A stretch of 64,000 bases of DNA, from IMG/VR virus record IMGVR_UViG_3300033150_001293. One strand, 5' to 3'. The position numbers were made by a program, and so were the translations under genes. The stretch comes from an uncultured virus (IMG/VR IMGVR_UViG_3300033150_001293). Lineage: Duplodnaviria > Heunggongvirae > Uroviricota > Caudoviricetes. Positions within the stretch are counted from its first letter, which is position 1. Each line of letters starts with the position of its first letter. This document shows positions 1,893-31,145 of this stretch, piece after piece. The notes under the pieces were generated by a model. The model saw only the letters and a list, made by a program, of their open reading frames with translations. It was not told the origin of the DNA and searched no databases.

Positions 1893-1924
1893 AGCCGTTA
1901 CCTCCATGTTCAGAATCAGTACCC

Positions 1925-4226: not shown

Positions 4227-4495
4227 TATTTGGCGATAGCCCGCCAATCCCGACGACTCATCAGCCGGCAGGCAATAACCGGTGAGTGCCTTCGGTCCTC
4301 CGGCTGGCGATACAGCCGCAGCCGGGCCGTTCGGCCGCCGACGTGCACGGTCAGGTCGACGTACCAGCCGTGCTCGTCCACTCGCGTTACCATTCCCTCG
4401 ATCTGCGGGCCGCCGACCTCCTCGGCCACCGTCGCCCGGATCGTGTCGCCAGGCCGCAGGTCTACGTCGTATTGCTGATCAGTCAGCGTTAGCAC
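4208..4495 (-). CDS. hypothetical protein
   Basis: ORF in the operon; ends in repeat-encoded SQHTS. Confidence 0.55.
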   Translation of the reverse strand: MLTLTDQQYDVDLRPGDTIRATVAEEVGGPQIEGMVTRVDEHGWYVDLTVHVGGRTARLRLYRQPEDRRHSPVIACRLMSRRDWRAIAKYSQHTS

Positions 4496-6900: not shown

Positions 6901-7194
6901 TCACGGCTTCTTTTTCATAATCACCTCGGCCGCCGCCGCTTCGATGGGGCCAACTTCATCGAACTTGCGCCCAGAGGCAAAGTCAACAATCTGGCCCATC
7001 GTCTCTTCGTTGGCCGCCTGGTCTTCGACAAAAGCCGTGTGCCCCTTGGCCATGTCTTCAATAATGACCTGGAGGCAATCGCCATCAATGTCGCCACTGG
7101 CGTGTTCTTCCAAAACTGTACTCACTGCGTCATCTCCTTGCCCGTCGCCGGGCGTTACGGTGTTGATGGTCGCGGGTGCCACGTCGCACCTCAC
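6901..7194 (-). CDS. hypothetical acidic protein
   Basis: ORF in the operon. Confidence 0.5.
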
Positions 7195-8534
7195 TTCAAT
7201 GCTTCGGGTTTTACAAGATCACGAACCGCTTTCGTGATTGACTCTTCGTATATCGTGAGCACGTCGGCAAGATGAACCTGCTCGATCGCGGTAATAGGAC
7301 CGTCCTTCTGGTCTCGATGTTGGACTTCGATCCCCGGCAAGCGAACATCGGAGCCGGGTTTCAGTTCAGCCTTCCAGTATTCATAGCCGCCCTTCTCGGG
7401 GCGTTCCGCAGAACGCAGAGTAATCGGCGGTATCCTCGCAATCACCTGTGTGGTTAGCTTGTCAAGATCAATCGTGGGGGCCGCGCTGATCGCTCCACCC
7501 GGCAGTCCTTGCGGCCCCGGAGGGCCTCGCTCGCCCGGCGCCCCCGGCAAGCCCATCGGCCCACGCTCGCCAGGCGGTCCTTGCGGCCCCCGGGGTCCCG
7601 GCTCGCCTTTCCCAGCAGTGCTTTCGACAGCGGCAAGTCGCTTTGCAAGGCTGTCGATCTGCGCCGCCAGTGCATGTTGGGCCTCCAAAAAATCCTTCAA
7701 CTGGGACGCCGACGGAGACGGAAGTGTCGTCGAGGGCGGAGGCTGCGAAGGCGGCACTTCCTCGGTATGGTAGCCGCCACCTTGGGGTTGCGGCACAGGA
7801 GTAGGCGTTGTCGGCCGGCGCCGAATCGTCCCGTAATTCGGCGCCGGCCGACAGATATAGCCTGGAGGGCAAGTGTAGTTCGGACTCGCCCCAGGATAGG
7901 GACGGATCTGTCGTGATCCGCTCCCGCAGCGGCGAAGGAGATTGCGTAGCCGTTCGCCAAACGTGCCGACGAAAGTTCGGCCGTCCGTGCCCCAAAACAC
8001 GGCTACCAATTCGCCCCGCTCGTTGAAAATCGGCCCGCCTGAATCGCCGTTGCGAAGCGATCCACGGACTTCGATCATTTCGCTGGTCGTAGTGCCGGTC
8101 GTGTTGACCCGCCCAATCATCGTACCCCGACACTCACGATAAGTGGAATCTGGGCCCCAGCCCGCTCCGATAAGCGTATCGCCAGGTTGTGGCGGCGTGT
8201 CGGCCAACTTCACCGTCGCGATCTTCGGCAAAAAGGCGCATTGCAGAACAGCCAGATCCCACACTAGATCACGGCCAACCAGTTGGAGACCGCGCATGGA
8301 GCCCGTTGTCCACCGTGCCTGGATCTCTACGACCCCATCGTTGAACAGGTGGGAGGCCGTCAACACGAGCCCGTCGCCAACATAGGTGCCCGAACCGTAG
8401 CTATTCGTCCCGTTGCCGTGCACTACGCCAATCCGGCAGACGGAGGGATGAGGAGTTGCGCCATGCGCTGCCGCGGCCAGAATCGCCAGCACGGCGAGCA
8501 CGTAGACGATGAGTTCTGCGGCCCAGGATTTCAT
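7191..8534 (-). CDS. secreted trypsin-like serine protease with a collagen-like GXY tract
   Basis: signal peptide; LTASH, DLAVL, GDSGGP triad motifs; [19 protein letters not shown]... Confidence 0.9.
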
Positions 8535-8953: not shown

Positions 8954-9913
8954 CTATTCCAAACGAAATCTGAACAGTTTTCCGTTTAGGTAGCGTGGTG
9001 TATATCCTCTCGCTTCCGTCTCCGCTGGCGTAGGCGATTTCCTTTTTCCCGCCGACGCAAACCCCGCCGGATTCAATTCGAGGGGAATCTTCTCAACGAC
9101 TTCCTTTGTCGGTCGCGGTAGTTTCGGATCGAAAAGCCACTCGACTCCGATTTCCTTTGCCCAGATACGAACGCTCCGCACAGGAACAACCCAATGAAAC
9201 GAGTCGCCACCACCACGAAGACCAAGGGTAATCATCCCTACCCATCGCCCGTCGCTACGCAAAGCGACAAGGCCGCCGGACGATCCGGGCAACCCTGCAC
9301 AATCCGTCTGATCGAATATGCCATGTTGCGAGCCGCCGAAATCAGGAATGCGAACACCGAGACGACTCAGAATCCCCGAAGTGAGTGAACAAGTCCCGCC
9401 AATTTCTTTTCCGCCAGGCGCGCCAGCGTGATAAAGCGGCGTCCCCGGCGCCGGAATCGTTTCGTCCAAGTACATCTCGCCGCCGACTTTCGTAAAGTCA
9501 CCCTTGCGAACGCGCAATAGGGCGATGTCCCTCGCAGGATCAACGTTCACGACCTTTGCATCGTATTTGATTTCCCCCACGCCACGGCCGTTCTCAACCT
9601 GTTCCTGGACTATCTGGGCGTCCCGGTAGCGGATCTGCTTACGCTCTTCGCCATCCGAACCAATGACGGTTTTGATTTCCCGCAACTTCTCGACCACATG
9701 ATGAGCCGTGAGTATCCAAACTGTTGGCGTCTTCTCGATCTCGCTCAAGAAAATCGTGCCCGAACCTTGCCCATCATTCGGACAGACGACATTGACCGAG
9801 ATAGACTGCAAATATGGTCCGACTTCTTCGGGCTTGCGTTGACCCTTGGCGGGAATCGCCAGCACGACGAACATACAGACGGCGAGTTCAGCAGACTTTA
9901 GCCAGATTGCCAT
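8954..9913 (-). CDS. trypsin-like serine protease
   Basis: GSGT, LTAHHV, DIALL, PGSSGG; signal-like N-terminus. Confidence 0.85.
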   Translation of the reverse strand: MAIWLKSAELAVCMFVVLAIPAKGQRKPEEVGPYLQSISVNVVCPNDGQGSGTIFLSEIEKTPTVWILTAHHVVEKLREIKTVIGSDGEERKQIRYRDAQIVQEQVENGRGVGEIKYDAKVVNVDPARDIALLRVRKGDFTKVGGEMYLDETIPAPGTPLYHAGAPGGKEIGGTCSLTSGILSRLGVRIPDFGGSQHGIFDQTDCAGLPGSSGGLVALRSDGRWVGMITLGLRGGGDSFHWVVPVRSVRIWAKEIGVEWLFDPKLPRPTKEVVEKIPLELNPAGFASAGKRKSPTPAETEARGYTPRYLNGKLFRFRLE

Positions 9914-10383
9914 CACATCACCTCCATCTGTCCAGTATATCGCATCCGCGTGCTCGTCCCGAGCAGCCCCGGCGATGTCCGCCACGGCTCGGCGTTCACC
10001 AACGGCTCGCCAATCGACGCGCACGCCGCCTGCAATATCTCCGAGCAAAACCACCAGCCCGGCTTATCGCACCGCCTGCGGACGGCAAATCCGAGTATCC
10101 CCCAAAGGTCGTATCGCTCGCCCTCGTGCCGCTCGTAGAACGCCGTCACCGCGTCGGCCTTCGCCGGGTCCCGCTCGAAGTCGGCCTGGTACACGTCGAT
10201 CACCGTCCCGGGCGTGTGCCCCCGGGACAGCCCAGGAACGATCCTAACGCCATCCGGCCACCACGCCTCGCACACCCGGGCGTCCCCCCGCGTAAGCCAC
10301 GCAGCGTGCGAGTAGGGGCTCCAGGTACGCCACTGGATCAGGCGGGAGAGCCAAGACTTGCCGCGGTAGAGCAGGACAGCCAT
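9913..10383 (-). CDS. permuted papain-like (YiiX/YebB, NlpC/P60) enzyme
   Basis: YSHAA ... YDLWG ... FCSE order of motifs. Confidence 0.75.
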   Translation of the reverse strand: MAVLLYRGKSWLSRLIQWRTWSPYSHAAWLTRGDARVCEAWWPDGVRIVPGLSRGHTPGTVIDVYQADFERDPAKADAVTAFYERHEGERYDLWGILGFAVRRRCDKPGWWFCSEILQAACASIGEPLVNAEPWRTSPGLLGTSTRMRYTGQMEVM

Positions 10384-12876: not shown

Positions 12877-13171
12877 TTCGCAACACACTTCTCAGATTTC
12901 AGCCGTTGTCACTAGGTGAGGAGGATACGAAACTGACCGAGAGGCTGCTCTCGCAACACACTTCTCAGACTTCAGCCGTTGTCACGCCCGGATGATGGGC
13001 GTGAGGCGGTCCTATTTCTCGCAACACACTTCTCAGATTTTAGCCGTCGTCACCACACCCGCGCGGTTGACACTGGCCCCATCTCGGCTACTCGCAACAC
13101 ACTTCTCGATTTTTAGCCGTCGTTACTAGCGACAAACGCCGGCGCGATCCCGCACTCTCGCAACACACTTC
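12877..13171 (-). CRISPR. CRISPR array A: 4 full 36-bp repeats plus a leading 15-bp half-repeat, 4 spacers (30-37 bp)
   Basis: repeats at 12877, 12950, 13018, 13091; half-repeat 13157-13171; minus-strand TATAAT at 13181-13186. Confidence 0.95.
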
Positions 13172-14329: not shown

Positions 14330-15397
14330 ATGTGCGAGTTCTTATCCGGCGTGGTCACGATAGAACGGTGCCCTCGTGTGCTTTGTGCCGATTTATGGCA
14401 TCACGAGCGCACGGTGGAGGCGTTCGATCTCAAACCAGAAACGTACCGGGAGTGGGAATGGACTAGGGACGACGACGGCGCCAGCCTCACGGTGCGTGCC
14501 GCGCCGGGCGAAAAAAGCAGCGTGCTGAAGTCGGCTATTCTTGCGAAGTTCCCAACGCGGGAAGACGCGCTGAGGGATTGTATCGCACAAACGTTGGAGA
14601 AAGGTGGTTCGCTCTCCCTTTGCGATTGCACGCTACCCGATAATCTAACGCTACCCGAGTCGATCGGCGGCGGGCTCGACTTTAGTAGATGTACACTACC
14701 CGATGGTCTGACGCTACCCGAGTCGATCGGCGGCGGGCTCGACTTTAGTAGATGTACACTACCCGATGGTCTGACGCTACCCAAGACGATAGACGGTTGG
14801 CTCAACCTTAGTTACTGCGTGCTGCCTGCCGATTTGACGTTGCCCAAGTCGATCGGCGGTGCATTCTACTTTCGCGGTTGCACGCTGCCCGCTGGTTTGA
14901 CGCTGCCCAAAACAGTAGGCGGTTGTCTCGACCTTTGCGGTTGCACGCTGCCCGCCGATTTGAAGCTACCCGAGTCGGTCGGCGAGTGGTTCTACCTTTA
15001 CGACTGCAAACTGCCTGCCGGATTGACACTACCCAAGTCGATAGGCGGTTGGCTCGATCTTCGCGGTTGCCCATTACCTACTGGCCTGACGCTGCCCGAG
15101 TCGATCGGCGGCGGGCTTGACCTTCGCGGTTGCACGCTACCCGCCGATTTGAAGCTGCCCAAATTGGTAGGCGACTGGCTCTACCTTAGCGGTTGCTCAT
15201 TGCCTGTTGGTCTAACGCTACCCAAGATAGTCGGCGGTTCGCTCTCCCTTTGCGATTGCAAGCTACCCGCCGGATTGAAGCTACCTGAGTCGATTGGCGG
15301 TTGCCTTGACCTTCGTCGCTGCACGCTGGCTGAGGGGCTAACATTGGACCTGAGCAAATATAGTGTGGTCCGCGCTGCAAGCTGGCTGAAGGCTTAA
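14330..15397 (+). CDS. LRR-like repeat protein 1
   Basis: conserved MCEFLSG N-domain plus 22-aa LPESIGGxLxLxxCxLPxxLT repeats. Confidence 0.9.
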   Translation: MCEFLSGVVTIERCPRVLCADLWHHERTVEAFDLKPETYREWEWTRDDDGASLTVRAAPGEKSSVLKSAILAKFPTREDALRDCIAQTLEKGGSLSLCDCTLPDNLTLPESIGGGLDFSRCTLPDGLTLPESIGGGLDFSRCTLPDGLTLPKTIDGWLNLSYCVLPADLTLPKSIGGAFYFRGCTLPAGLTLPKTVGGCLDLCGCTLPADLKLPESVGEWFYLYDCKLPAGLTLPKSIGGWLDLRGCPLPTGLTLPESIGGGLDLRGCTLPADLKLPKLVGDWLYLSGCSLPVGLTLPKIVGGSLSLCDCKLPAGLKLPESIGGCLDLRRCTLAEGLTLDLSKYSVVRAASWLKA

Positions 15398-15450
15398 CAT
15401 TGGACCTGAGCAAGTACCGTATAATCCGCTAGGCAACAGGAGCCATCACA

Positions 15451-16560
15451 ATGTGCAAATTTTTATCCGGCGTGGTCACGATGGAGCGGTGCCCGCGAGT
15501 GCTCTGCGCCGACCTATGGCACCACGAGCGTACGGTGGAGGCGTTCGGCCTTAAGCCGGAGACGTACCGAGAATGGGAATGGCTCGAAGACGACGACGGC
15601 GCCAGCCTCACGGTGCGTGCTATACCCGATGAAAATCCCAACGTGTTGAAGTCGGCCATCCTAGCGAAATACCCGACGCGGGAAGAAGCGCTGAGGGCTT
15701 GTATTGCACAGGTGTTAGAGAGACATGGCAGGCTCGATTTCGGTGATTGCGTGCTGCCTGCCAACCTAACACTACCTGAGTTGATAGACGGTTGTCTCGA
15801 CTTTAGCGGATGTGCACTACCCGCCAGTCTAACACTACCCGAGACGATAGGCGAATGGCTCGATCTTAGTGGTTGTGTATTGCCTGCCGAATTAACGCTA
15901 CCCAAGTCAGTCGGCAGTTCACTCTACCTCTGCAACTGCGTGTTACCCGCTAGTTTGGAGTTACCTGAGACGATTGGTGGCTCACTTAACCTTAGTGGCT
16001 GCAAGTTGCCTGTTGGATTAACGCTACCCAATCCAATAGACGGTATACTCAACCTCAACGGCTGCACGCTACCTATTGGTTTGACGCTACCCGAGTCGAT
16101 CGGCGGCGGGCTCGACCTTCGCGGTTGCACGCTGCCCGCCGATTTGAAGCTACCCGAGTCGATCGGCGGCTCGCTTGACCTTCGCGGTTGCTCATTGCCT
16201 ATTGGTCTAACGCTACCCAAGACAGTCGGCGGTTCGCTCTCCCTTTGCGATTGCAAGCTACCCGCCGGATTGAAGCTACCCGAGTCGATTAGCGGCGGAC
16301 TCGACCTTTGTGGTTGCGTACTGCCTGCCGATCTGAAGATGCCCGAGTCGGTGGGCGATTGGCTCTACCTTAGCGGTTGCTTATTGCCCGTTGGTCTAAC
16401 GCTACCCGAGACAGTCGGCGGTTCGCTCTACCTTTGCGATTGCGAGTTACCTGCTAGGCTAACGCTACCCGAGTCGATCGGCGGCTCGCTTGACCTTCGC
16501 GGTTGCACGCCGGCTGAAGGCTTAACATTGGACCTGAGCAAGTACCGCGTGATCCGTTAA
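15451..16560 (+). CDS. LRR-like repeat protein 2
   Basis: paralogue with the same architecture. Confidence 0.9.
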   Translation: MCKFLSGVVTMERCPRVLCADLWHHERTVEAFGLKPETYREWEWLEDDDGASLTVRAIPDENPNVLKSAILAKYPTREEALRACIAQVLERHGRLDFGDCVLPANLTLPELIDGCLDFSGCALPASLTLPETIGEWLDLSGCVLPAELTLPKSVGSSLYLCNCVLPASLELPETIGGSLNLSGCKLPVGLTLPNPIDGILNLNGCTLPIGLTLPESIGGGLDLRGCTLPADLKLPESIGGSLDLRGCSLPIGLTLPKTVGGSLSLCDCKLPAGLKLPESISGGLDLCGCVLPADLKMPESVGDWLYLSGCLLPVGLTLPETVGGSLYLCDCELPARLTLPESIGGSLDLRGCTPAEGLTLDLSKYRVIR

Positions 16561-16578
16561 TCAACAGGAGCCATCACA

Positions 16579-17877
16579 ATGTGCGAGTTCTTATCCGGCG
16601 TGGTCACGATGGAGCGGTGCCCGCGAGTGCTCTGCGCTGATTTGCGGCATTGCGAATACACAGTGGCAGCGTTCGGTCTTAAGCCGGAGACGTACCGAGA
16701 ATGGGAATGGCTCGAAGACGACGACGGAGCCAGCCTCACGGTGTATGCCGCGCCCGGCGAAGAAGGCAGCGTGCTGAAGTCGGCCATCCTGGCAAAATAC
16801 CCGACGCGGGAAGACGCGCTGAGGGCTTGCGTCGCTCAGGCGTTGGAGAAACGCGGTTTGCTCGACTTTCGCAGCTGTACGCTACCCGCTGATTTGAAGC
16901 TACCCGAGTCGATGGATGACTCGCTCAATCTTCGCTATTGCACGCTACCCGACGGATTGACGCTACCCAAGTCGATCGGTGGCTGGCTCGACCTTAACAA
17001 CTCCGTGCTACCCGACGGTTTGAAGCTACCCGAATCGGTAGGCGGCTCGCTCGACCTTAGTGGCTGCAAGTTGCCTGTTGGATTGACGCTACCCAAGTCG
17101 ATCGGCGGCTCGCTCGACCTTAGCGATTGTAAGCTGCACGCTGGATTGAAATTACCCAAGTCGGTGGGCAAGTGGCTCTACCTTTGCGGCTGCACGCTAC
17201 CCAACGGGCTGACGTTGCCTAAGTCGATGAACGGTTCGCTTGACCTCAGCTACTGCACGCTACCCGCCGATCTGAAGCTACCCAAGTCGATTGGCGGCTC
17301 GCTTGACCTCTATTACTGCGTGCTACCTGCTGGCCTGACGCTGCCCGAGTCGATCGGCGGCGGGCTCGATCTTCGCGGCTGCGTATTACCCGCTGGGCTG
17401 ACGCTGCCCGAGTCGATCGGCGATGAACTCTGCCTTCGCAACTGCACGCTGCCCGACGATTTGACGCTGCCCGAGACAATAGGCGGTTGGCTTGACCTTC
17501 GCGGCTGCGTATTACCCGCTAGTCTGACACTACCCGAGTCGATCAGCGGCTCGCTCGATCTTCGCGGCTGCAAGCTACCCGCTAGTCTGTCGCTACCCGA
17601 GTCGATCGGCGGTTCGCTCTACCTTCGCGGCTGCACATTGTCTAGCGATTTGACATTACCCAAATCGGTAGGCGGTTCGTTTAACCTTTGCGATTGCGTA
17701 TTACCTGTTGGGCTGACGCTACCCGAGTCGATTGGCGGTGAACTCTACTTTTGGAATTGTAAGCTACCCGCTGGGCTAACGCTACCCAAGTCGATTGGCG
17801 GTTGGCTCGACCTTAGCGGCTGCACGTTGGCTGAAGGCTTAACGTTGGACCTGAGTAAGTACCGCGTGATCCGTTAA
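16579..17877 (+). CDS. LRR-like repeat protein 3
   Basis: paralogue with the longest repeat tract. Confidence 0.9.
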   Translation: MCEFLSGVVTMERCPRVLCADLRHCEYTVAAFGLKPETYREWEWLEDDDGASLTVYAAPGEEGSVLKSAILAKYPTREDALRACVAQALEKRGLLDFRSCTLPADLKLPESMDDSLNLRYCTLPDGLTLPKSIGGWLDLNNSVLPDGLKLPESVGGSLDLSGCKLPVGLTLPKSIGGSLDLSDCKLHAGLKLPKSVGKWLYLCGCTLPNGLTLPKSMNGSLDLSYCTLPADLKLPKSIGGSLDLYYCVLPAGLTLPESIGGGLDLRGCVLPAGLTLPESIGDELCLRNCTLPDDLTLPETIGGWLDLRGCVLPASLTLPESISGSLDLRGCKLPASLSLPESIGGSLYLRGCTLSSDLTLPKSVGGSFNLCDCVLPVGLTLPESIGGELYFWNCKLPAGLTLPKSIGGWLDLSGCTLAEGLTLDLSKYRVIR

Positions 17878-17895
17878 TCAACAGGAGCCAATATA

Positions 17896-18711
17896 ATGTG
17901 CGAATTTCTATCCGGCATAGTTACGATGGAGCGGTACCCTCGTGTGCTCTGCGCCGACCTACGGCATCACGAGCGCACGGTGGAGGCGTTCGATCTCAAG
18001 CCGGAAACGTACCGGGAGTGGGAATGGGTCGAGGACGACGACGGAGCCAGCCTCACGGTGCGTGCCGCGCCCGGCGAGAATCCCAGCGTGCTGAAGTCGG
18101 CCATCCTGGCGAAATACCCGACGCGGGGAGACGCGCTGAGGACTTGCGTTGCTCAGGCGTTGGAAAAAAGCGGTTCGCTCTACCTTCGCGATTGCAAGCT
18201 GCCTGACGGTTTGACGCTGCCCGAGACGATAGATGGTTGGCTCGACCTTCATGGTTGCGTATTGCCTGCTAGTCTAACGCTACCCAAAACAGTTGGTGGC
18301 TGGCTCAACCTCGACGGCTGCATGCTACCCGCCGGAGTGACGTTACCCGAGTCGATCGGCGGCTGGCTTGACCTCAACAACTCCGTGCTACCCGACGGAC
18401 TAACGCTACCCAAGTTGGTAGGCGATTCGCTCGACCTTCGCGGCTGCAATCTACCTGCTAGTCTGACGCTACCCAAGACAGTTGGCAGTTCACTCTACCT
18501 TTGCGATTGCGAGCTACCCAACGGATTGACATTACCCAAGTTGGTAGGCGGTTCGCTCGACCTTCGCGGTTGCAAGCTACCTGCTGGCCTGACGCTACCC
18601 GAGTCGATCGGCGGTTCGCTCGACCTTCGTCGCTGCACGCTAGCTGAGGGTCTGATATTGGACCTGAGCAAATATAGTGCGGTCCGCGCTGCACGTTGGC
18701 GAAGGGTTTAA
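17896..18711 (+). CDS. LRR-like repeat protein 4
   Basis: paralogue with the shortest repeat tract. Confidence 0.9.
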   Translation: MCEFLSGIVTMERYPRVLCADLRHHERTVEAFDLKPETYREWEWVEDDDGASLTVRAAPGENPSVLKSAILAKYPTRGDALRTCVAQALEKSGSLYLRDCKLPDGLTLPETIDGWLDLHGCVLPASLTLPKTVGGWLNLDGCMLPAGVTLPESIGGWLDLNNSVLPDGLTLPKLVGDSLDLRGCNLPASLTLPKTVGSSLYLCDCELPNGLTLPKLVGGSLDLRGCKLPAGLTLPESIGGSLDLRRCTLAEGLILDLSKYSAVRAARWRRV

Positions 18712-24919: not shown

Positions 24920-25462
24920 CCGATTTCAGCGGAGCCGGATTTCTCTGGCGAGTCGAATAGATAGACCGACCCTCCCTGGGCATCCCCGTACATGGTAGCC
25001 GTGATGACGCTCGTTGATTCTAGAAGACGCCCGGCTGTCTGCTTCGATCGGCCGGGACCGGTTCGGGCTTCTGCGACACAGGCTGGCAAGGCCCGTGTAG
25101 ACCTACTGACGGCGTTCTGTTTGCCGGATGCCTTTTGGACCGGGACGCGGTCGGCGCGGTTGGATCGACTACCAGCTCGTTGCCCGGGAGAAGCCGCGAT
25201 GTGCGGCACAGAATACCTTTCGGCTGCATCGGCCCTCGGGCGGAGATATGCGCCCGCCGATTTGTATTCCGGCTCTTTTTGTGGGGTGAAAGTGCCGGCA
25301 CGACGTAACCCCTCTTCGAGAATCGGTCTCCGCCGAACTATTCGGCTGAATGTAGTATAATATGGGCTAGTGAACGTGTCAACCCCGGCAGGCGAGTCGG
25401 TCTCCGCCTTTGAGTCCCCCAATCGGCCGTAACCCCCGTGCGGGGGGCGAGCCGGGTTTTTC

Positions 25463-25498
25463 ATGGCAACGGCTGAAATCCAAGAAGTGTATAGCGAG
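25463..25498 (+). repeat. degenerate full repeat after a terminator
   Basis: ATGGCAACGGCTGAAATCCAAGAAGTGTATAGCGAG. Confidence 0.8.
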
Positions 25499-25519
25499 CA
25501 AAAGCGAAAGGACAATCGA

Positions 25520-25963
25520 ATGGCCGAAAAAGCACCTGAAGAGCGTTTGTGGGGCTGCATAGTACAAATCATGCTGATGGCGTTTTTCATCTATATCATA
25601 GGCGTTCTTCTTGCGGCCCTGTTTAAGTCCGCGTCTATGCCGGACGTTACGCCGTCGTACAGGCCGCCTGCCACGCCGTCTTGGGACGACATGTATTCGT
25701 CGCCGGGGCCGTCGCGCAGCAGCGGTGCGACGACTGTCTCGACGTGTACTCTGGCCCCGTCGGCCTCGGCCTACAGGCAGGCCACCGACGCGGCGGCACA
25801 CGGCAACGGGCTCGGCGTGGCGGCGACCGGCACGGTGATCCTGGAGAGCGGCACGCGGGTCAGGGTGCTCGGCTCGGGCGGGTTCATGCTGAAGCGGGTG
25901 GCCGTGCTGAGCGGACCCTATGCCGGAAAGACGGGCGTGGTTGCGTCGGAAAAAATCCGCTGA
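25520..25963 (+). CDS. membrane-anchored protein with SH3-like C-terminus
   Basis: TM segment; GTRVRVL..RVAVLSGPYAGKTGVV. Confidence 0.6.
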   Translation: MAEKAPEERLWGCIVQIMLMAFFIYIIGVLLAALFKSASMPDVTPSYRPPATPSWDDMYSSPGPSRSSGATTVSTCTLAPSASAYRQATDAAAHGNGLGVAATGTVILESGTRVRVLGSGGFMLKRVAVLSGPYAGKTGVVASEKIR

Positions 25964-25982
25964 GATATGGTATAATAGAAAT

Positions 25983-26208
25983 CAACGGGGTCCTCGCAGC
26001 CCCAATGAGAGGCGAGAAGTACCATGACACCCAAACGGCAATCACGGCGCATCCGTCCCCGATCATGTGCAAGCATGACGGGTGACGGTCGCCGGCTGAG
26101 CGGGTCCGGGCAACTCTCGCTGAAGGCTCCTGAAACAGGCCGGATATGCCGTGAGCCCGGCCGACACACTTCGCCTGGTGCGGTGATTCATCGCCGCACC
26201 AGGTTTTT
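25983..26208 (+). ncRNA. predicted tracrRNA of the Cas12f-like system
   Basis: TGG-TATAAT at 25968-25976; anti-repeat CGACACACTTC at 26162-26172; CTCGCA at 25993-25998; terminator hairpin plus T5. Confidence 0.75.
26174..26208 (+). terminator. intrinsic terminator
   Basis: CCTGGTGCGGTGA-TTCA-TCGCCGCACCAGG-TTTTT. Confidence 0.85.
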
Positions 26209-26213
26209 ATTCT

Positions 26214-26382
26214 GGCTGAAATTCAAGAAGTGTGTTGCGAGGCACGGGGCGACCTGGACACGTCACACCTCGTGACGACGGCTGAAATCTGAGAAGTGTG
26301 TTGCGAGACCGAATCTCACCGTAGAGAAGAGCCTCTTTATAGGGTGGCGACAACGGCTGAAATCTGAGAAGTGTGTTGCGAG
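26214..26382 (+). CRISPR. CRISPR array B: 3 repeats (first 5'-truncated), 2 spacers
   Basis: repeats at 26214, 26272, 26347. Confidence 0.92.
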
Positions 26383-26417
26383 CGAGCAAACAAAAACGAA
26401 AGGGAAAGGAGAACGAC

Positions 26418-26960
26418 ATGGCGACTACAAGACAAGCGTTGTTGGAGCTGAAGAGGCTGGCGGCATCGGCCGCCGACAACCTGTACCGCCGCATCGAGCT
26501 GTCGGCGCAGGTGATGAGCGACCTGGACTGGATTGCCCGCGAGCACGGCGGTTCCGACTTGAAGGCCCAAGACACGTTGCAGGATCAGTTCTTCAGGGAC
26601 CTTGGCGGGTTCATCTCCCTCGGCAAGCTGATTGCGATGTTTCGCAACGTGCCGCAGGAGACGTGGGCCGAGCTGAAGTACGACGTGGCGGCCGTCGAAG
26701 TCGTCTACGACGACCAGGCCATCGAGAAGACGGAGAAGGGGACCAAGACCGCCTGGAAGCCCATTGCGGAGGAGAGGGGCGAAAAGATCGAACGCCTTCA
26801 GCGGCAGATGTCTCAGGTCAACGAGCTGGCCGATAAGCAGCGTTCGGAAATCGACGTGCTGCGGGCGAAGGTTGAAGAGCTGACCCGCGAGAACGAGCGT
26901 CTTCGGGGGCGCGTCGAGGAGCTTCAACGACTGCTCGATAGGCAGGTCGTGCAAGTGTGA
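26418..26960 (+). CDS. coiled-coil protein embedded between arrays B and C
   Basis: AAGGAG RBS; C-terminal heptads (LRAKVEELTRENERLRGRVEELQRLL). Confidence 0.8.
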   Translation: MATTRQALLELKRLAASAADNLYRRIELSAQVMSDLDWIAREHGGSDLKAQDTLQDQFFRDLGGFISLGKLIAMFRNVPQETWAELKYDVAAVEVVYDDQAIEKTEKGTKTAWKPIAEERGEKIERLQRQMSQVNELADKQRSEIDVLRAKVEELTRENERLRGRVEELQRLLDRQVVQV

Positions 26961-27875
26961 CGGGAAGTGTGTTGCGAGGGCGAGAACCGGCTTCAGCACG
27001 TGGTCCCCGCAAGAGGTGACAACGGCTGAAAGCGGAGAAGTGTGTTGTGAGGACGGGGCGATTGCGGGTTGTGACGACGGCTGAAATTGGAGAAGTGTGT
27101 TGCGAGCCGAGTCTGTCCCCGAGGGTGACAACGGCTGAAAATCGAGAAGTGTGTTGCGAGACACGGCGCCCGCGCCCGTCTCGACGCCGCGAGCGACGTG
27201 ACAATGGCTGAAAATCGAGAAGTGTGTTGCGAGCACCCGGCTCACGTCCACGCCGCCCGGGCCGGCCCGGTGACAATGGCTGAAATCCGAGAAGTGTGTT
27301 GTGAGAAGGTCACCCACCCTCCGAGTGGTGACAACGGCTGAAATCGGAGAAGTGTGTTGCGAGACCTCCCAGCGCCGCCCGCCGGGGTCGGACAGCTCGC
27401 CCGTGACAACGGCTGAAAATCGAGAAGTGTGTTGCGAGCCGAATAGGTCGGTAAGCTTGGTTGGGTGGTGCTCTCGTGACGATGGCTGAAATTCGAGAAG
27501 TGTGTTGCGAGCAGACCCCAATCGTGCAAGACCGCGACACTAAGGCACGTGACGACGGCTAAAATCTGAGAAGTGTGTTGCGAGCCGACGAAGAATCCCG
27601 CCGTCGCGAGGGAGATGGCCGTGACAACGGCTGAAATCTGAGAAGTGTGTTGCGAGCTGCCATCGTTACCCTTTCAGTCTGGTTATGTTACCCGTGACGA
27701 CGGCTGAAATCCGAGAAGTGTGTTGCGAGGCTTCGGAGTAGGCCAGCCGCCCGTCCAGGTCCGGGGTGATGACGGCTGAAAGTCGAGAAGTGTGTTGCGA
27801 GTGTCCATGATGCAATCGCAGGGGACGCTGCTGGAGGCGCTGACGACGGCTGAAATCGGAGAAGTGTGTAACGAG
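26957..27875 (+). CRISPR. CRISPR array C: 14 repeats (first internally deleted, last degenerate), 13 spacers of 18-39 bp
   Basis: repeats at 26957, 27016, 27071, 27125, 27198, 27270, 27328, 27403, 27476, 27549, 27621, 27694, 27766, 27840. Confidence 0.97.
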
Positions 27876-27900
27876 CAAACAAGCGAGGGAGCGAGGCAAA

Positions 27901-29184
27901 ATGGCCATCGGAATTCTAGAAGTCAAGCTGGGGCGTCCGATCCAAATGCCAACGAAGCGGTTCCACCAGCTACTCAGGCAGGCCCGCCGCGATTGCTGCA
28001 AAGCACGCAACGCGGCCATGCTCCACTGGTATGTCTGGCGGCGAGAGCACGCGGATTGGGAGCCGGGAAAACCATACGAGGCGCCGAAAGCCAAGATTAT
28101 GCGAACTCGCAAACCGGCAGGCGAAGGGAAGAAGCCACCGAAGGACTCGCCGATTGCCCCTCGCCTATTTCTTAGCCGCGAACTCTACCACGCGGCAACC
28201 GCGGCGGCGCGGAACCTGTCGGCGTCGCTCGCCTCGTCGTGTGTACAGGAGGTGATCGCCCGACTCAAGGCCAACACCCCTTACGACCACGACGGCGAAG
28301 CGAGGTGGGTATGGCAAGCAATCCTTGCGTCCGAAGTCAATCTGCCCACCTGGCGCGGCGGGCGCATCCCGATGCCCAAGCGGTGCTCGTCGCTCGGATA
28401 CGACGGGGCCGTCAGCCAACCGTCGGCTGACGTGGCGAGGGCCTGCAAAAGCGGGTGCGTTTTGAAGTTTCAACTGCTGTCTAGGCTGAGCGGCTATAGG
28501 ACGCTATCGCCCATCGTCCGACTGGACGCCGCCGACCTGACGCGGGGCAACCGGCGATTGCTGAGGCGTCTGGCGTCTGGCGAGGTACGTCTGGCAGACA
28601 GCCAGATCGTCGAGAAAAAGGGCAAGTGGTTCGCCCAATTCTGCTACGAGGTGGCGGCCAACGCGATCGGCCTGCCAACGGATCAGGTGTTGACGCTACT
28701 GCCGGCGGAGCCGGACGACAAGTGGCCGTTCGCGCTCGCATGGACCAAGGAGGATGGGAATGGGCGGGTGTGGAAGATTGGCAACGGGCGGCCGCTCGTG
28801 GCCGAATACCGCCGGGTAGTAGCCCGGCGCCGGGCGATCCGCTACCGCTACCAGGACGGGACGGGCAGCGGGCACGGGCGCCAGCGGTGGTACAAGGCGA
28901 TTCGTCCGATGGCTCACGCCGTGCGGGACATGCAGAACCGCTTTGAGAAGCAGACGATTGCGGACATCATCAAGCTGGCGATTCGTGAGCGGTGCGGCAC
29001 GGTCCTGTACCGCGAGCCGACGATGCCGGTCCGCAACTATTCGTGGTTTGCGGCCAAGGACGTGCCGTTTGACTGGACGAGTTTCGAGGCGAGGCTGCGG
29101 TTCAAGACGGAGACGCGCGGCCTGGCCTACGAGAAGGCGCGTATCGGGATGAAGGAATGGCGTCCAAGAAAAATCGCAAACTGA
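27901..29184 (+). CDS. cas12f: Cas12f-like type V effector, predicted nuclease-dead
   Basis: collinear with AsCas12f1 as recalled: ILASEVNLPTWR/ILRGDMSIPSYK, SQIVEKKGKWF/SQIIHDDRKNKWY, GHGRQR/GHGRDKR, AIRERCGTV/AIKEGCGTI; RuvC-I is VLTLLPA (no D), RuvC-II is VLYREPT, Zn finger and RuvC-III absent; flanked by arrays. Confidence 0.85.
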   Translation: MAIGILEVKLGRPIQMPTKRFHQLLRQARRDCCKARNAAMLHWYVWRREHADWEPGKPYEAPKAKIMRTRKPAGEGKKPPKDSPIAPRLFLSRELYHAATAAARNLSASLASSCVQEVIARLKANTPYDHDGEARWVWQAILASEVNLPTWRGGRIPMPKRCSSLGYDGAVSQPSADVARACKSGCVLKFQLLSRLSGYRTLSPIVRLDAADLTRGNRRLLRRLASGEVRLADSQIVEKKGKWFAQFCYEVAANAIGLPTDQVLTLLPAEPDDKWPFALAWTKEDGNGRVWKIGNGRPLVAEYRRVVARRRAIRYRYQDGTGSGHGRQRWYKAIRPMAHAVRDMQNRFEKQTIADIIKLAIRERCGTVLYREPTMPVRNYSWFAAKDVPFDWTSFEARLRFKTETRGLAYEKARIGMKEWRPRKIAN

Positions 29185-29477
29185 TCCTCGACTGCGAGAT
29201 ATGCGGGGAGCCGGTAGTGCTGTCGCCGTCGCGGTACGTCGCGCTCGTGCGGGCTGGCGAGCGGCCGCGGTGCCGGAAGAACGGGTGCGAGAGGTTGTGC
29301 GGTGCGAAAAGTGCGGGGACCTCTCGCGGCACGCAAGTACTTGCCGGGGCGAGGGTTTCGCCGCTGGTAGTGCAATGGCCCCACACGAAGAGGGGCAACA
29401 AGAATGGAGCCCTCGCAAAGCTGGCCGTAAAGCGAGACGGCGCATGGCGTTACGAGGGGTGCCGTGACGATGGCTGA
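29157..29477 (+). CDS. small Cys-rich Zn-finger protein overlapping the cas12f stop
   Basis: CEICG...CRKNGC. Confidence 0.55.
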   Translation: MASKKNRKLILDCEICGEPVVLSPSRYVALVRAGERPRCRKNGCERLCGAKSAGTSRGTQVLAGARVSPLVVQWPHTKRGNKNGALAKLAVKRDGAWRYEGCRDDG

Positions 29478-31145
29478 AATCGGAGAAGTGTGTTGCGAGA
29501 CACGAGTTCAGGCGATGTATATACTGGTATGAGCAAGTGACGATGGCTGAAATCGGAGAAGTGTGTTGCGAGGGTCCGACGCCTCCGCAATCTGCTTGGC
29601 GTAGCCGAGTGACAACGGCTGAAATCGGAGAAGTGTGTTGCGAGTGCGAGCGTCCTCCACCCCGAGGCTCGGGTACCTCCCGTGACGACGGCTGAAATCG
29701 GAGAAGTGTGTTGCGAGGCACGTCTCTGGCCTCGCCAATCGCCGCGTTCTTGCCGTGACGATGGCTGAAAATCGAGAAGTGTGTTGCGAGAGAACCGTCA
29801 AGTCCGGGTCGCCACCGTGCGACGACGGCTGAAAGCGGAGAAGTGTGTTGCGAGGCGAATACGAGAGACGTGGGCGCCGACCGTTGGCCGCGTGATGACG
29901 GCTGAAAGCGGAGAAGTGTGTTGCGAGCTGGTAGCGGCAGGCGTGTATCGCCCGAAAGACGGGCGTGACGCGGCTGAAATCCAAGAAGTGTGTTGCGAGT
30001 AGAGTCTGCATAGGCTCAGCGTGTGACAACGGCTGAAAGTCAAGAAGTGTGTTGCGAGCCTGCCGATCGCCCATTGCGTCTCACTCCTTTCGGGTCGTGA
30101 CGATGGCTAAAATCCGAGAAGTGTGTTGCGAGAAGGTCGCCCACCCTCCGAGTGGTGACGACGGCTGAAATTCGAGAAGTGTGTTGCGAGAATGAAGAGG
30201 GAAGGCAGGGGTTACGATCCCATCCGGCGTGATGATGGCTGAAATCTGAGAAGTGTGTTGCGAGGGGTGGACGTGCCGGCGGCGACGATCACGGTGGACG
30301 GCGTGACGATGGCTGAAATCGGAGAAGTGTGTTGCGAGTCGAGTAGCTGCCCGGGGGCTTGTAGGCACCGGCCCGCGTGACGATGGCTGAAAATCGAGAA
30401 GTGTGTTGCGAGAACCACGCAATCAGGGAGCTGGCCTGGGAGGGTGTCAAGTGACGACGGCTGAAATCGGAGAAGTGTGTTGCGAGGCCGAAAACCGAAG
30501 ACGATCAGCGTGCGATAGCTGGTCGTGACGATGGCTGAAATCTGAGAAGTGTGTTGCGAGAGCACGTACGGGCTCACACCCGGCGGTTGACTCCAGCGGT
30601 GACGACGGCTGAAATCTGAGAAGTGTGTTGCGAGCCCTCCCGTGTGACGAGCCGGATGACCTATACGCAGGTGACGACGGCTGAAAATCAAGAAGTGTGT
30701 TGCGAGTCGCCAACCCGGGGATACGTTCAACGGACAGCTACGGACGTGACGATGGCTGAAATTCGAGAAGTGTGTTGCGAGTTGATCGAGAAGATGTTGG
30801 TGGCTGGCCAGCCGGCGTGTGACGATGGCTGAAATTCGAGAAGTGTGTTGCGAGTCGCGGGCCTTCAGGAGGGCAGTTAGCCGTGATTGCAGTGATGACG
30901 GCTGAAATCTGAGAAGTGTGTTGCGAGGCGTCGATCAGCGCCAGCGGGGCCGGCCCGTGGAATGCGTGACGATGGCTGAAATCTGAGAAGTGTGTTGCGA
31001 GAAGCCAAGAGGCAATGCGAGCACGGCGAATGGGGGCGTGACAACGGCTGAAAGCGGAGAAGTGTGTTGCGAGGCTGCCCAATGTGCCCTTGTATTTGGC
31101 GAGAGAACGCGTGCCAACGGCTGAATCCAAGAAGTGTGTCGCGAG
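29464..31145 (+). CRISPR. CRISPR array D: 24 repeats, 23 spacers of 22-39 bp
   Basis: 36-bp repeats from 29464 to a degenerate terminal copy at 31111-31145. Confidence 0.98.

What the first reader, a model, noticed from the sequence alone, without database searches (positions are those of the whole stretch)
25983..26208. Predicted tracrRNA whose anti-repeats cover exactly the conserved 15-mer
Seen: extended -10 box (TGGTATAAT), about 225 nt, then a strong terminator. CGACACACTTC (26162-26172) pairs with GAAGTGTGTTG with one G:U. CTCGCA(G) at 25993-25999, or CTCGC at 26116-26120, pairs with the terminal TGCGAG. Known: Cas12f and Cas12k tracrRNAs use two separated repeat:anti-repeat duplexes. 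Inference: this explains why only these 15 nt are invariant in arrays and dispersed units, and favours RNA-level function over a DNA operator.
Basis: partly seen in the sequence, partly recalled or inferred. Interest (0 to 1): 0.85.

Follow-up and report, generated by a model that had tools for sequence, protein, structure and literature searches.

The report
Phage tracrRNA for dead Cas12f-like protein
This roughly 225-base stretch most likely encodes a small scaffold RNA (a tracrRNA) that base-pairs with the 15-base tag shared by all CRISPR repeats and many transcript starts in this phage, and works with a neighbouring cutting-deficient Cas12f-like protein.

Summary

- **The element.** Window 25984-26210 (+) sits between an extended -10 box (TGGTATAAT) and a 14-bp intrinsic terminator. 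There is one copy in the window.
- **Conservation.** Homologues lie on the same strand next to relatives of the 427-aa ORF at 27901-29184 in 17 of 36 related metagenomic or viral loci.
- **The protein.** That ORF has a Cas12f fold. It has proline at the RuvC-I aspartate position and ends before the zinc ribbon and RuvC-III, so it looks nuclease-dead.
- **RNA structure.** The RNA has a covarying structure: 94.8% of cells paired against 79.5% in shuffles, 0 of 500 shuffles as high.
- **Anti-repeat 1.** The 3' anti-repeat (26163-26172) changes in step with each locus's own repeat end: 8-12 contiguous pairs in 11 of 11 cognate pairs, against a mean of 3.25 for non-cognate pairs.
- **Anti-repeat 2.** The second anti-repeat is the loop of the 5' hairpin (CTCGCA, 25993-25998), which shows two compensatory changes. 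The alternative at 26116-26120 is invariant and pairs inside the RNA.

Expression and protein binding are untested. The architecture is Cas12f/Cas12k-like. What is new is the setting: a phage-borne inactive effector, with the tag also heading many phage transcripts.

The parts
25968..25976 (+). Extended -10 promoter box TGGTATAAT. The start of the RNA is inferred at about 25983-25985.
   Evidence: Sequence. The motif GGTATAAT occurs 9 times against 0.38 expected. The same box sits 9-10 nt before 15-mer units at 40535+, 40372- and 33837-. No -35 was found.
25984..26210 (+). Predicted tracrRNA, about 227 nt.
   Evidence: - Single covariance-model hit in the window, 25982-26212, 202 bits.
- nhmmer profile hit 25984-26209, E 7e-52.
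- MFE -103.7 kcal/mol, z -4.09, 0 of 200 shuffles fold as well.
- 18 of 32 consensus pairs have compensatory changes.
25987..26003 (+). 5' hairpin P1: stem 25987-25991 with 25999-26003, loop 25992-25998.
   Evidence: RNAalifold columns 8-12 with 20-24; 95.6% of cells paired.
25993..25998 (+). Anti-repeat 2 (CTCGCA) in the P1 loop. It pairs with tag bases 10-15 (TGCGAG), the guide-proximal end.
   Evidence: Compensatory changes in L001 (CTTGCA with TGCAAG) and L031 (CTCTCAC with GTGAGAG). Watson-Crick complement of 4-6 bp in 11 of 11 cognate pairs.
26012..26023 (+). 5' strand of the long-range helix P2 (GGCGAGAAGTACC region).
   Evidence: Pairs with 26109-26120. 6 of 10 pairs never vary and 2 have changes on both sides.
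26109..26120 (+). 3' strand of P2.
   Evidence: ACTCTCGC is invariant in 14 of 14 homologues, even where the repeat end differs. An energy-only co-fold does use it, but it does not covary with the repeat.
26138..26162 (+). Helix P4 (GGCCGG 26138-26143 with CCGGCC 26157-26162).
   Evidence: 4 of 6 pairs have changes on both sides.
26163..26172 (+). Anti-repeat 1 (GACACACTTC). It pairs with tag bases 10 to 1 (GAAGTGTGTT).
   Evidence: Covaries with each locus's own repeat end: 8-12 contiguous bp in 11 of 11 loci. Present in the minimum-energy dimer.
26173..26210 (+). Intrinsic terminator: 14-bp stem, 4-nt loop, T tract.
   Evidence: All 11 pairs of the homologous helix have changes on both sides.
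26227..26382 (+). Mini-array of three tag-bearing units directly after the RNA. The last unit is 35 nt before the ATG of the 180-aa gene.
26418..26960 (+). Conserved 180-aa coiled-coil partner gene of unknown function.
   Evidence: tblastn hits in 28 loci next to the effector gene. Only weak coiled-coil matches in Pfam, NCBIfam and PHROGs, and Atlas scores were under 0.9.
26964..27875 (+). CRISPR-like array of 14 units. The last, degenerate unit is 25 nt before the effector ATG.
27901..29184 (+). Cas12f-like protein, 427 aa, predicted nuclease-dead.
   Evidence: - phmmer against PDB: AsCas12f E 2e-9.
- Model pLDDT 90.3.
- Foldseek: AsCas12f E 6.5e-19, dCas12f 9n9c E 1.6e-13.
- Pro at the RuvC-I Asp position in 41 of 48 homologues, and all 48 end 21-35 residues after G407.
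29157..29477 (+). Conserved 106-aa CCCC zinc-ribbon protein. It overlaps the effector gene by 28 nt.
   Evidence: tblastn hits in 30 loci directly after the effector gene. C13, C16, C39 and C44 are invariant in 20 sequences.
29485..31145 (+). CRISPR-like array of 24 units.
12877..13171 (-). Five-unit array on the minus strand. The first unit is promoter-driven and the last lies before the D12 methyltransferase gene.

Best explanation
Window 25984-26210 (+) encodes a trans-acting scaffold RNA (tracrRNA) of a phage-borne, nuclease-dead Cas12f-like system.

**Proposed mechanism**
- It is transcribed from the extended -10 promoter at 25968-25976 and ends at the terminator at 26173-26210. This step is inferred.
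- Its folded core is P1, the long-range P2, a variable middle, and P4. This is shown by covariation.
- The core presents two single-stranded anti-repeats.
  - GACACACTTC (26163-26172), between P4 and the terminator, pairs with bases 1-10 of the 15-nt tag GAAGTGTGTTGCGAG. This is shown by covariation.
  - CTCGCA in the P1 loop (25993-25998) pairs with bases 10-15, next to the guide. This is supported by two compensatory events and is an inferred pseudoknot.
- Any RNA that carries the tag at or near its 5' end would be assembled with the tracrRNA into a dual guide RNA for the 427-aa protein. That includes units of the four arrays, and transcripts that start at a tag just after a promoter. This step is inferred from homology with AsCas12f and Cas12k guide RNAs.
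- The protein lacks the RuvC-I aspartate and carries no zinc ribbon or RuvC-III segment in its own chain. The complex would therefore bind, not cut, complementary DNA and act on gene expression. This step is inferred.

One tracrRNA gene serves all 74 tag copies in the window.
For: **Location and conservation**
1. There is one copy in the window. Homologues lie on the same strand as, and upstream of, the effector gene in 17 of 36 other loci searched.
   - Two of these are cut by contig ends, and one further hit (L036) is weak, E 0.0019.
   - Among the 20 loci with at least 750 nt upstream of the gene, 15 have a strong hit, 1 is weak and 4 have none (L003, L032, L034, L038).

**RNA structure**
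2. 94.8% of cells are paired against 79.5% in shuffles. 18 pairs have changes on both sides against 9.4. For every measure, 0 of 500 shuffles reach the observed value.
   - Sliding the partners by 1-3 columns gives 38-50% paired.
   - G:U pairs fix the strand.

**Pairing with the repeat**
3. Anti-repeat 1 tracks the repeat end in 11 of 11 loci across at least 7 tag variants.
   - Examples: CGTCACACCTC with GAGGTGTGATG (L005), CGACATGCTCTC with GAGAGCATGTTG (L001), CGATACGTTTCC with GGAAACGTATTG (L004), CGCTTCGAC with GTCGAAGTG (L031).
4. Anti-repeat 2 has compensatory changes in L001 and L031.
5. Only the tag is constrained. L001 has two repeat families that share just the last 14-16 nt.
6. 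In the distant relative L035 the RNA runs straight into a tag (CACGT-cat-ACGTGATGCGAG), a natural single-guide form.

**Protein and precedent**
7. The neighbouring protein has the Cas12f fold.
8. Solved Cas12f and Cas12k guide RNAs use the same two-part pairing of a roughly 14-nt repeat end (passages read).
Against: - **No expression data.** No sequencing run could be listed. The 5' and 3' ends and the trans action are therefore inferred.
- **Promoter.** A recognisable -10 box is not seen upstream of every homologue, for example L005, L007 and L023. Some copies may be made by read-through and processing.
- **Single-sequence energetics are weak.** A shuffled tag binds as well in 37 of 500 trials. 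The minimum-energy dimer uses 26115-26120, not the P1 loop, for the tag's 3' end. That program cannot draw a loop pseudoknot.
- **Anti-repeat 2 rests on few events.** It rests on two lineages only. In L031 the invariant site could also pair 5 bp.
- **The 11 loci are related.** Counts of loci overstate the number of independent events.
- **Missing in distant relatives.** No homologue was found next to L032 and L034, whose proteins are 29-34% identical.
- **Other gaps.** No target of any spacer is known, and binding of the RNA by the protein is untested.
Confidence: 0.85

Rival explanations
1. The element is a cis-acting leader or untranslated region of the operon that follows (mini-array, 180-aa gene, array, effector). 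It would be an attenuator or processing signal whose complementarity to the tag controls maturation or read-through of the pre-crRNA. It would not be a trans-acting scaffold bound by the effector.
For: - It lies directly upstream of the mini-array and on the same strand.
- Some homologues lack an obvious promoter of their own.
- The terminator could act as an attenuator.
Against: - The element changes position relative to the 180-aa gene: it lies after that gene in L004 and L035 and before it elsewhere. The RNA core is kept unchanged.
- One copy must serve arrays on both strands and up to 13 kb away.
- The invariant core and the two-part anti-repeat match the scaffolds of solved Cas12f and Cas12k guide RNAs.
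- The terminator stem is strong, with 14 bp.
Confidence: 0.07
2. The RNA is an antagonist or sponge. It would be a regulatory small RNA that sequesters tag-bearing transcripts by its anti-repeats, in the manner of RNA anti-CRISPRs or CRISPR-RNA-like regulators, without being part of the effector complex.
For: - It is complementary to the tag.
- Phage-encoded repeat-mimicking regulatory RNAs are known (abstracts listed: PMC10651486 and 10.1101/2024.10.29.618823).
Against: - Those RNAs mimic repeats, not anti-repeats.
- This RNA has about 150 nt of conserved structured core beyond the anti-repeats.
- It is strictly linked with the effector gene in the phage itself.
- The tag has no hairpin of its own that could serve as a handle for the protein, so a partner RNA is expected.
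Confidence: 0.04
3. There is no RNA function. The complementarity would be chance or a decayed reverse repeat, or the region would encode the 83-aa ORF 26024-26275.
For: - Several reading frames are free of stops in this G+C-rich stretch.
- The 9-mer also occurs once elsewhere, at 43286-.
Against: - No frame is open in all homologues. L004 has stops in all six frames, with the longest run 48 of 74 codons.
- The ORF runs through the terminator.
- Conservation is in blocks, with indels that are not multiples of three.
- Helices covary, and the anti-repeat covaries with the repeat.
Confidence: 0.02

Closest known systems
Cas12f (type V-F) tracrRNA / sgRNA, e.g. AsCas12f1 (PDB 7wju, 8j12, 8dzj)
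   Same: - It is a long structured scaffold RNA.
- The repeat end pairs in two separate segments, R:AR-1 and R:AR-2.
- R:AR-2, next to the guide, stacks on stem 1 near the 5' end of the scaffold (passages read).
- The partner protein has the same fold.
   Different: - The partner protein here lacks the RuvC-I aspartate. It also lacks the zinc-finger and RuvC-III segment in the same chain.
- A separate zinc-ribbon gene and a coiled-coil gene are conserved partners.
- The system is phage-borne.
- The tag also stands alone at promoters and gene starts.
- No sequence comparison with the AsCas12f RNA was made.
Cas12k (type V-K) tracrRNA
   Same: - It is a 218-nt tracrRNA with a roughly 14-nt repeat-derived handle.
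- Bases -1 to -5 pair with an upstream tracrRNA segment, and -6 to -14 pair with the 3' end of the tracrRNA.
- The effector is naturally inactive (passages read).
- Here a 15-nt tag pairs at -1 to -6 and at -6 to -15, in the same order.
   Different: - There is no Tn7-like transposition gene in the Pfam scan of 64 ORFs.
- The protein is closest to Cas12f, not Cas12k: Foldseek E 6.5e-19 against 3e-5.
- The upstream anti-repeat is in a hairpin loop at the 5' end.
dCas12f-sigmaE RNA-guided transcription (Hoffmann et al., Nature 2026, PMC13472631; PDB 9n9c)
   Same: - Both have a Cas12f-derived protein made inactive by loss of the C-terminal RuvC part.
- Both are presumed to have a role in gene expression.
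- The paper also mentions a separate cluster of array-linked dCas12f (sections 5, 6, 9, 11 and legends read).
   Different: - That study found no tracrRNA, and a single chimeric guide instead.
- Its partner is an ECF sigma factor. No sigma-factor domain was found among 64 ORFs here.
- Sequence similarity to 9n9c is marginal, E 0.17.
- Those systems are chromosomal in Bacteroidota, whereas this one is in a phage-like, 60% G+C genome.
TldR, TnpB-like nuclease-dead repressors (10.1101/2023.11.30.569447)
   Same: Both are inactive members of the TnpB/Cas12 lineage used as RNA-guided regulators, and some are prophage-encoded (abstract and search listing only).
   Different: - TldRs use a single omega-like RNA with one guide and have no arrays.
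- Here there is a dual RNA, four arrays, and dozens of tag-led RNAs.
Solitary repeat units and CRISPR-RNA-like regulators in phages (Racr, crlRNA)
   Same: Both involve stand-alone repeat-like units scattered in a phage genome (abstracts).
   Different: - Those units hijack the host's Cas proteins.
- Here the phage carries its own effector and tracrRNA.
- The units keep only the part that pairs with that tracrRNA.

Membership tests
Type V tracrRNA with two anti-repeats (Cas12f/Cas12k style) | Encoded next to the effector gene and a CRISPR array | tested here: met
   Window order is RNA, mini-array, 180-aa gene, array, effector, zinc-ribbon gene, array. The same linkage is seen in 17 other loci.
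Type V tracrRNA with two anti-repeats (Cas12f/Cas12k style) | Anti-repeat complementary to the repeat end, kept complementary as both evolve | tested here: met
   8-12 contiguous bp in 11 of 11 cognate pairs, against a mean of 3.25 for non-cognate pairs.
Type V tracrRNA with two anti-repeats (Cas12f/Cas12k style) | A second, separate anti-repeat for the guide-proximal repeat bases | tested here: met
   The P1-loop CTCGCA has compensatory changes in L001 and L031. This rests on only two lineages, so the assignment of the site carries about 70% confidence.
Type V tracrRNA with two anti-repeats (Cas12f/Cas12k style) | Conserved structured scaffold | tested here: met
   32 consensus pairs, 18 with changes on both sides, and 0 of 500 shuffles as high.
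Type V tracrRNA with two anti-repeats (Cas12f/Cas12k style) | Made as a discrete small RNA | not testable with these tools
   No sequencing run could be listed. The promoter and terminator are sequence predictions.
Type V tracrRNA with two anti-repeats (Cas12f/Cas12k style) | Bound by the effector and needed for guide loading | not testable with these tools
   Needs RIP-seq or reconstitution.
Cas12f (type V-F effector) | Cas12f fold (WED, REC, RuvC) | tested here: met
   Foldseek top 8 chains are all AsCas12f, E 6.5e-19 to 4.5e-17. phmmer E 2e-9.
Cas12f (type V-F effector) | Complete RuvC catalytic triad | tested here: not met
   - Pro stands at the aligned RuvC-I Asp position in 41 of 48 homologues.
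- Glu of RuvC-II is kept in 45 of 48.
- No RuvC-III segment: all 48 end 21-35 residues after G407.
Cas12f (type V-F effector) | Zinc finger inserted in RuvC in the same chain | tested here: not met
   It is absent from the chain. A separate CCCC zinc-ribbon ORF follows in 30 loci, and its relation to the Cas12f zinc finger is unproven.
Cas12f (type V-F effector) | Adaptation genes (cas1, cas2, cas4) nearby | tested here: inconclusive
   None were found among the 64 ORFs scanned with Pfam. Most ORFs under 150 aa were not scanned, so a cas2 could be missed.
dCas12f-sigmaE RNA-guided transcription | Operon with an ECF sigma factor carrying a C-terminal extension | tested here: not met
   No sigma-factor domain was found among 64 ORFs. 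The conserved neighbours are a coiled-coil protein and a zinc-ribbon protein.
dCas12f-sigmaE RNA-guided transcription | Single chimeric guide RNA, no tracrRNA | tested here: not met
   A separate RNA with its own terminator is present in the window and most loci. Only L035 has a fused form.
Phage solitary repeat units (RNA anti-CRISPR) | Repeat mimics of a host CRISPR system, without a cognate effector in the phage | tested here: not met
   The effector and tracrRNA are encoded in the same window.

The most novel reading that the evidence does not exclude
The tracrRNA and the inactive Cas12f-like protein read a 15-nt tag that this phage places at the start of many of its own transcripts.

- In sense orientation, the tag sits just before the ribosome-binding sites of genes. 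These include the effector gene itself and its two partner genes.
- In antisense orientation, promoter-driven units sit at the ends of genes and operons.
- Each such transcript would then be its own guide. The phage would have a genome-wide, RNA-guided network that acts in cis on its own DNA or messages, for example as programmable roadblocks or terminators, as activators, or as a self-mark on phage RNAs.
- The arrays would supply further guides against host or rival DNA.

This would be a use of a CRISPR-derived machine for a virus's own gene programme, not for immunity.
Probability: 0.3. Interest if true: 0.9.

Novelty: new variant of a known kind. Interest (0 to 1): 0.75.

Why it matters
**What it defines**
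- It gives the missing RNA partner for a large, unnamed family of short Cas12f-like proteins. The family has 259 clusters at 50% identity with E up to 0.001, and 116 with E up to 1e-30.
- These proteins look unable to cut DNA, and at least some are carried by phages.
- The full guide is now defined as the tracrRNA plus a 15-nt tag plus the spacer, so the system can be rebuilt and tested directly.

**How it differs from published systems**
- It extends the recent finding that inactive Cas12f proteins were recruited for gene control to a different setting.
- The architecture is also different: dual RNA, arrays, a zinc-ribbon partner and a coiled-coil partner, and no sigma factor.

**The wider puzzle**
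- It explains why a short tag, and not the whole repeat, is kept at dozens of places in the genome.
- It turns that puzzle into a testable idea, namely that phage transcripts are themselves loaded as guides.

**Literature**
- Three full-text searches found no description of this family.

Tried and rejected
**Database searches for the RNA and its close relatives**
- Rfam: no family at gathering score in the whole window. Only two chance-level matches in 25900-26420.
- Close relatives: a single-protein scan of viral contigs found none. blastn of 25400-29500 against 50,697 phage records gave no match. The genome collection held no relative. No whole genome is held for the window.
- Earlier findings of this scan: nothing by place or by sequence.
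- Sequencing runs: none was listed, and no RNA holder was listed.

**Spacer targets**
- Of 43 array spacers against the window, only spacer 27234 has a notable match: 18 of 18 nt at 61730-61747, E 2e-5. The other matches are at chance level.
- Both large arrays gave no match against phage records.
- Tag-adjacent 32-mers of the other loci against the window showed nothing convincing.
- No target-adjacent motif could therefore be derived.

**Partner proteins**
- Complex prediction of the 427-aa protein with the 106-aa zinc-ribbon protein gave no verdict, score 0.00.
- A profile of the zinc-ribbon family against PDB sequences gave only spurious matches. Whether it is the detached Cas12f zinc finger stays open.
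- The 180-aa partner had only coiled-coil noise in Pfam, NCBIfam and PHROGs, and Atlas scores were under 0.9.

**Rejected readings of the element**
- A small protein gene in the element was rejected.
- The alternative second anti-repeat at 26116-26120 was rejected because it is invariant and lies in helix P2. An energy-only co-fold does choose it.

Full report
**The observation**

- TGGTATAAT lies at 25968-25976.
- About 227 nt further on there is a terminator: stem 26173-26204, 14 pairs of which 9 are G-C, a 4-nt loop, then TTTTATT.
- CGACACACTTC is at 26162-26172, CTCGCAG at 25993-25999 and CTCGC at 26116-26120.
- The 15-mer GAAGTGTGTTGCGAG has 74 matches at up to 2 mismatches in the 64-kb window, against 0.22 expected.
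  - The matches form four arrays with a 36-nt repeat and spacers mostly of 36-39 nt: 12877-13171 (-), 26227-26382, 26964-27875 and 29485-31145.
  - There are also about 30 units outside arrays.
- The -10 box is not an isolated match. GGTATAAT occurs 9 times against 0.38 expected. Three of those copies stand 9-10 nt before a 15-mer unit.

The window alone would not carry the claim.
- The anti-tag 9-mer occurs once more elsewhere.
- A shuffled tag binds the RNA equally well in 37 of 500 trials.

**The surroundings**

- The window is phage-like. It encodes a tape-measure protein, RecT, a PD-(D/E)XK-like protein, a helicase, DNA methyltransferases and many glycosyltransferases. One related locus is a record of the viral-contig collection.
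- The 427-aa ORF at 27901-29184 lies between two arrays and has no Pfam or PHROGs family.
  - It matches AsCas12f in the PDB by sequence, E about 2e-9, residues 212-408 against 167-358 of 422.
  - A model built on 48 homologues has mean pLDDT 90.3.
  - Foldseek ranks AsCas12f chains first, E 6.5e-19, followed by the published inactive Cas12f, 9n9c, E 1.6e-13.
- The protein looks nuclease-dead.
  - It has proline where the RuvC-I aspartate aligns, in 41 of 48 homologues.
  - It keeps the RuvC-II glutamate in 45 of 48.
  - All 48 end 21-35 residues after the last shared glycine. The zinc finger and RuvC-III are therefore absent from the chain.
- The family is large: 259 clusters at 50% identity with E up to 0.001.
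- Two further genes travel with it.
  - A 180-aa coiled-coil protein (26418-26960) has tblastn hits in 28 loci.
  - A 106-aa protein with four invariant cysteines (29157-29477) has hits in 30 loci.

**The element is a conserved, structured RNA**

- A single-sequence nhmmer search with 25960-26215 found homologues in 18 loci, two of which duplicate L001.
- A profile and a covariance model find exactly one copy in the window, 25982-26212 at 202 bits.
- Among 36 other loci they find 17 further copies plus one weak hit. All are on the strand of the effector gene and upstream of it.
- Of the 20 loci that hold at least 750 nt upstream of the gene, 15 have a strong hit, 1 a weak one and 4 none.
  - L003 has its upstream part filled by arrays up to the contig end.
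  - L032 and L034 are distant relatives.
  - L038 is a doubtful protein match.
- The alignment of 14 copies shows invariant blocks separated by variable stretches, with indels that are not multiples of three.
- RNAalifold gives four helices with 32 pairs, and 18 pairs have changes on both sides.
- On the same structure, 94.8% of cells are paired against 79.5% in shuffles. The covariation score is 0.370 against 0.116. In every measure 0 of 500 shuffles reach the observed value. Sliding the partners by 1-3 columns gives 38-50% paired.
- The single sequence folds with z = -4.09.
- No reading frame is open in all copies.

**The anti-repeats covary with the repeat**

Related loci carry different repeat ends, for example GAGGTGTGATGCGAG, GGAAACGTATTGCGAG, CGAAACGTGATGCGAG, GAGAGCATGTTGCAAG and GTCGAAGTGAGAG.

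*Anti-repeat 1.*
- In each locus the segment between helix P4 and the terminator is the complement of that locus's own repeat end.
- The register was fixed by the alignment and repeat ends were taken from the loci by program. On that basis the cognate helix is 8-12 contiguous pairs in 11 of 11 loci, and the non-cognate mean is 3.25.
- The cognate value is the strict row maximum in 8 rows, tied in 2, and exceeded by one pair in 1 (the L004 RNA with the L026 tag, through wobble pairs).
- Three of these repeat ends rest on only one or two copies: L026, L013, and L023, whose repeat end was taken from its sister contig L022.
- The loci are related, so these are not 11 independent events. At least 7 different tag variants are involved.

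*Anti-repeat 2.*
- The second anti-repeat is the loop of the 5' hairpin.
- It reads CTCGCA in most loci, CTTGCA in L001 where the repeat ends TGCAAG, and CTCTCAC in L031 where it ends GTGAGAG.
- The alternative site at 26116-26120 lies in ACTCTCGC, which is invariant in 14 of 14 copies. It forms helix P2 with GGCGAG at 26012-26017, and the outer pairs of that helix covary.
- In L001 this alternative site would have an internal mismatch with the tag.
- An energy-only co-fold prefers this site, but that method cannot draw a loop pseudoknot.
- I put the second site at the P1 loop with about 70% confidence.

*Coverage of the tag.*
- Because C26162 belongs to P4, anti-repeat 1 is 26163-26172 (tag bases 10 to 1) and anti-repeat 2 is 25993-25998 (tag bases 15 to 10).
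- This is consistent with two observations. L001 has two unrelated repeat bodies that share only the last 14-16 nt. L034 has only 12-nt ends with short spacers.

**Comparison with known systems**

- Passages of the AsCas12f1 structure preprint describe stems 1-4 plus R:AR-1 and R:AR-2, with R:AR-2 stacked on stem 1 and held by the protein.
- Passages of a Cas12k structure preprint describe a 218-nt tracrRNA and a 14-nt repeat-derived handle. Bases -1 to -5 of the handle pair with tracrRNA 87-91, and -6 to -14 pair with 211-218.
- The present RNA has the same logic and order, so it works like these tracrRNAs.
- The protein fails two defining features of an active Cas12f, the catalytic triad and the in-chain zinc finger. 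I therefore file it as a Cas12f-derived, inactive relative.
- It differs from the published dCas12f-sigmaE systems.
  - Those have no tracrRNA and an ECF sigma partner (sections and legends read).
  - Here no sigma domain was found among 64 ORFs.
- That paper also mentions an array-linked cluster of inactive Cas12f in bacteria, with putative guide RNAs found by covariance. I could not see its figures or supplements, so overlap with the present family cannot be excluded.
- Three full-text searches found no description of a phage-borne system of this kind.
- In L035, whose protein is 31% identical, the RNA runs directly into a tag through a 5-bp hairpin. This is a natural single-guide form.

**How it most likely works**

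- *Shown by comparison:* there is a structured RNA, and its two single-stranded segments pair with the tag.
- *Inferred:*
  - It is made from its own promoter and ended by its terminator.
  - It joins any tag-led RNA to form a dual guide.
  - The inactive Cas12f-like protein binds this pair, perhaps with the zinc-ribbon and coiled-coil proteins.
  - The complex binds complementary DNA without cutting and changes gene expression.
- One gene supplies the scaffold for four arrays and all dispersed units.

**What remains open**

- Expression is untested. No run was listed.
- Targets are unknown.
  - Of 43 spacers, one has an 18-of-18 match in the window at 61730-61747.
  - No spacer has a match in phage records.
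- The most striking open point is the dispersed units. This rests on a crude gene map of my own, based on third-position G+C.
  - 9 of 31 units that are not followed by another unit stand 21-60 nt before a ribosome-binding site, a start codon and an ORF of at least 60 aa. These include the effector gene and the 180-aa gene.
  - About a dozen units have their own -10 box and point against the local genes, at or near gene ends.
  - Promoter-driven units would give RNAs that start at or a few bases before the tag.
- This suggests that phage transcripts themselves are loaded as guides. I give this reading a probability of about 0.3.

**Verdict**

- The element is a new variant of a known kind of RNA, in an uncharacterised and potentially important phage system.

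Noticed in passing
window 867+, 4212+, 5776+, 24251-, 31660-, 33249-, 33807-, 34781-, 36942-, 40341-, 43804-, 57559+: Promoter-driven 15-mer units point against the direction of the neighbouring genes, often at gene or operon ends. They would give tag-led antisense RNAs. Gene directions come from my own crude map.
   Followed up: partly
window 5449-, 13367+, 25484+, 26368+, 27861+, 35178+, 37067+, 40552+, 46419-: Tag units sit 21-60 nt before a ribosome-binding site, a start codon and an ORF of at least 60 aa. This holds for 9 of 31 units not followed by another unit. The messages of the effector and its partner gene would begin with the tag.
   Followed up: partly
window upstream of the units at 867+, 4212+, 5776+, 24265-, 31674-, 43818-: A conserved element of about 25 nt, roughly AATGGTACAATGCAnTTGTGCTnA, precedes six units. 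It has an inner inverted repeat. It differs from the GGTATAAT-type promoters of the other units.
   Followed up: no
L035:5736-5972: In a distant relative (protein 31% identical) the scaffold RNA is fused to a tag through a 5-bp hairpin, with no terminator between. It runs into the 5' leader of the effector gene, giving a natural single-guide form.
   Followed up: partly
L001:2290-2633 and 4233-4319: Two arrays in one contig have unrelated repeat bodies and share only the last 14-16 nt.
   Followed up: yes
window 27306-27327 and 30133-30154; L005, L007, L008 arrays: The same or nearly the same spacer occurs more than once within or between arrays, and some spacers are only 18-23 nt long. The arrays seem to grow by duplication. 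No cas1 or cas2 was seen among the ORFs scanned.
   Followed up: partly
window 27234-27269 versus 61730-61747: One array spacer matches the phage's own late region: 18 of 18 nt, and about 23 of 26 by eye.
   Followed up: partly
window 29157-29184: The zinc-ribbon ORF overlaps the end of the effector ORF by 28 nt in another frame. Whether the two are made as one chain by frameshifting, or the small protein is the detached Cas12f zinc finger, is open.
   Followed up: partly
window 1671-2261 (-): An ORF in this phage-like genome has a C-terminal CsrA domain, E 6e-24. CsrA is an RNA-binding regulator of translation.
   Followed up: no
window 14330-18711 (+): Four consecutive genes for leucine-rich-repeat proteins are built from 63-nt tandem repeats.
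   Followed up: no
window 7191-8534 (-) and 8954-10054 (-): Two trypsin-like peptidase genes, one with a collagen-like repeat.
   Followed up: no
window 63361-63719: A 54-nt tandem repeat with 6.6 copies lies inside a late-region ORF that has a weak carbohydrate-binding match.
   Followed up: no
window 43286 (-): This is the only other anti-tag 9-mer (ACACACTTC) outside reverse-strand units. It lies inside a glycosyltransferase gene and is probably chance.
   Followed up: no
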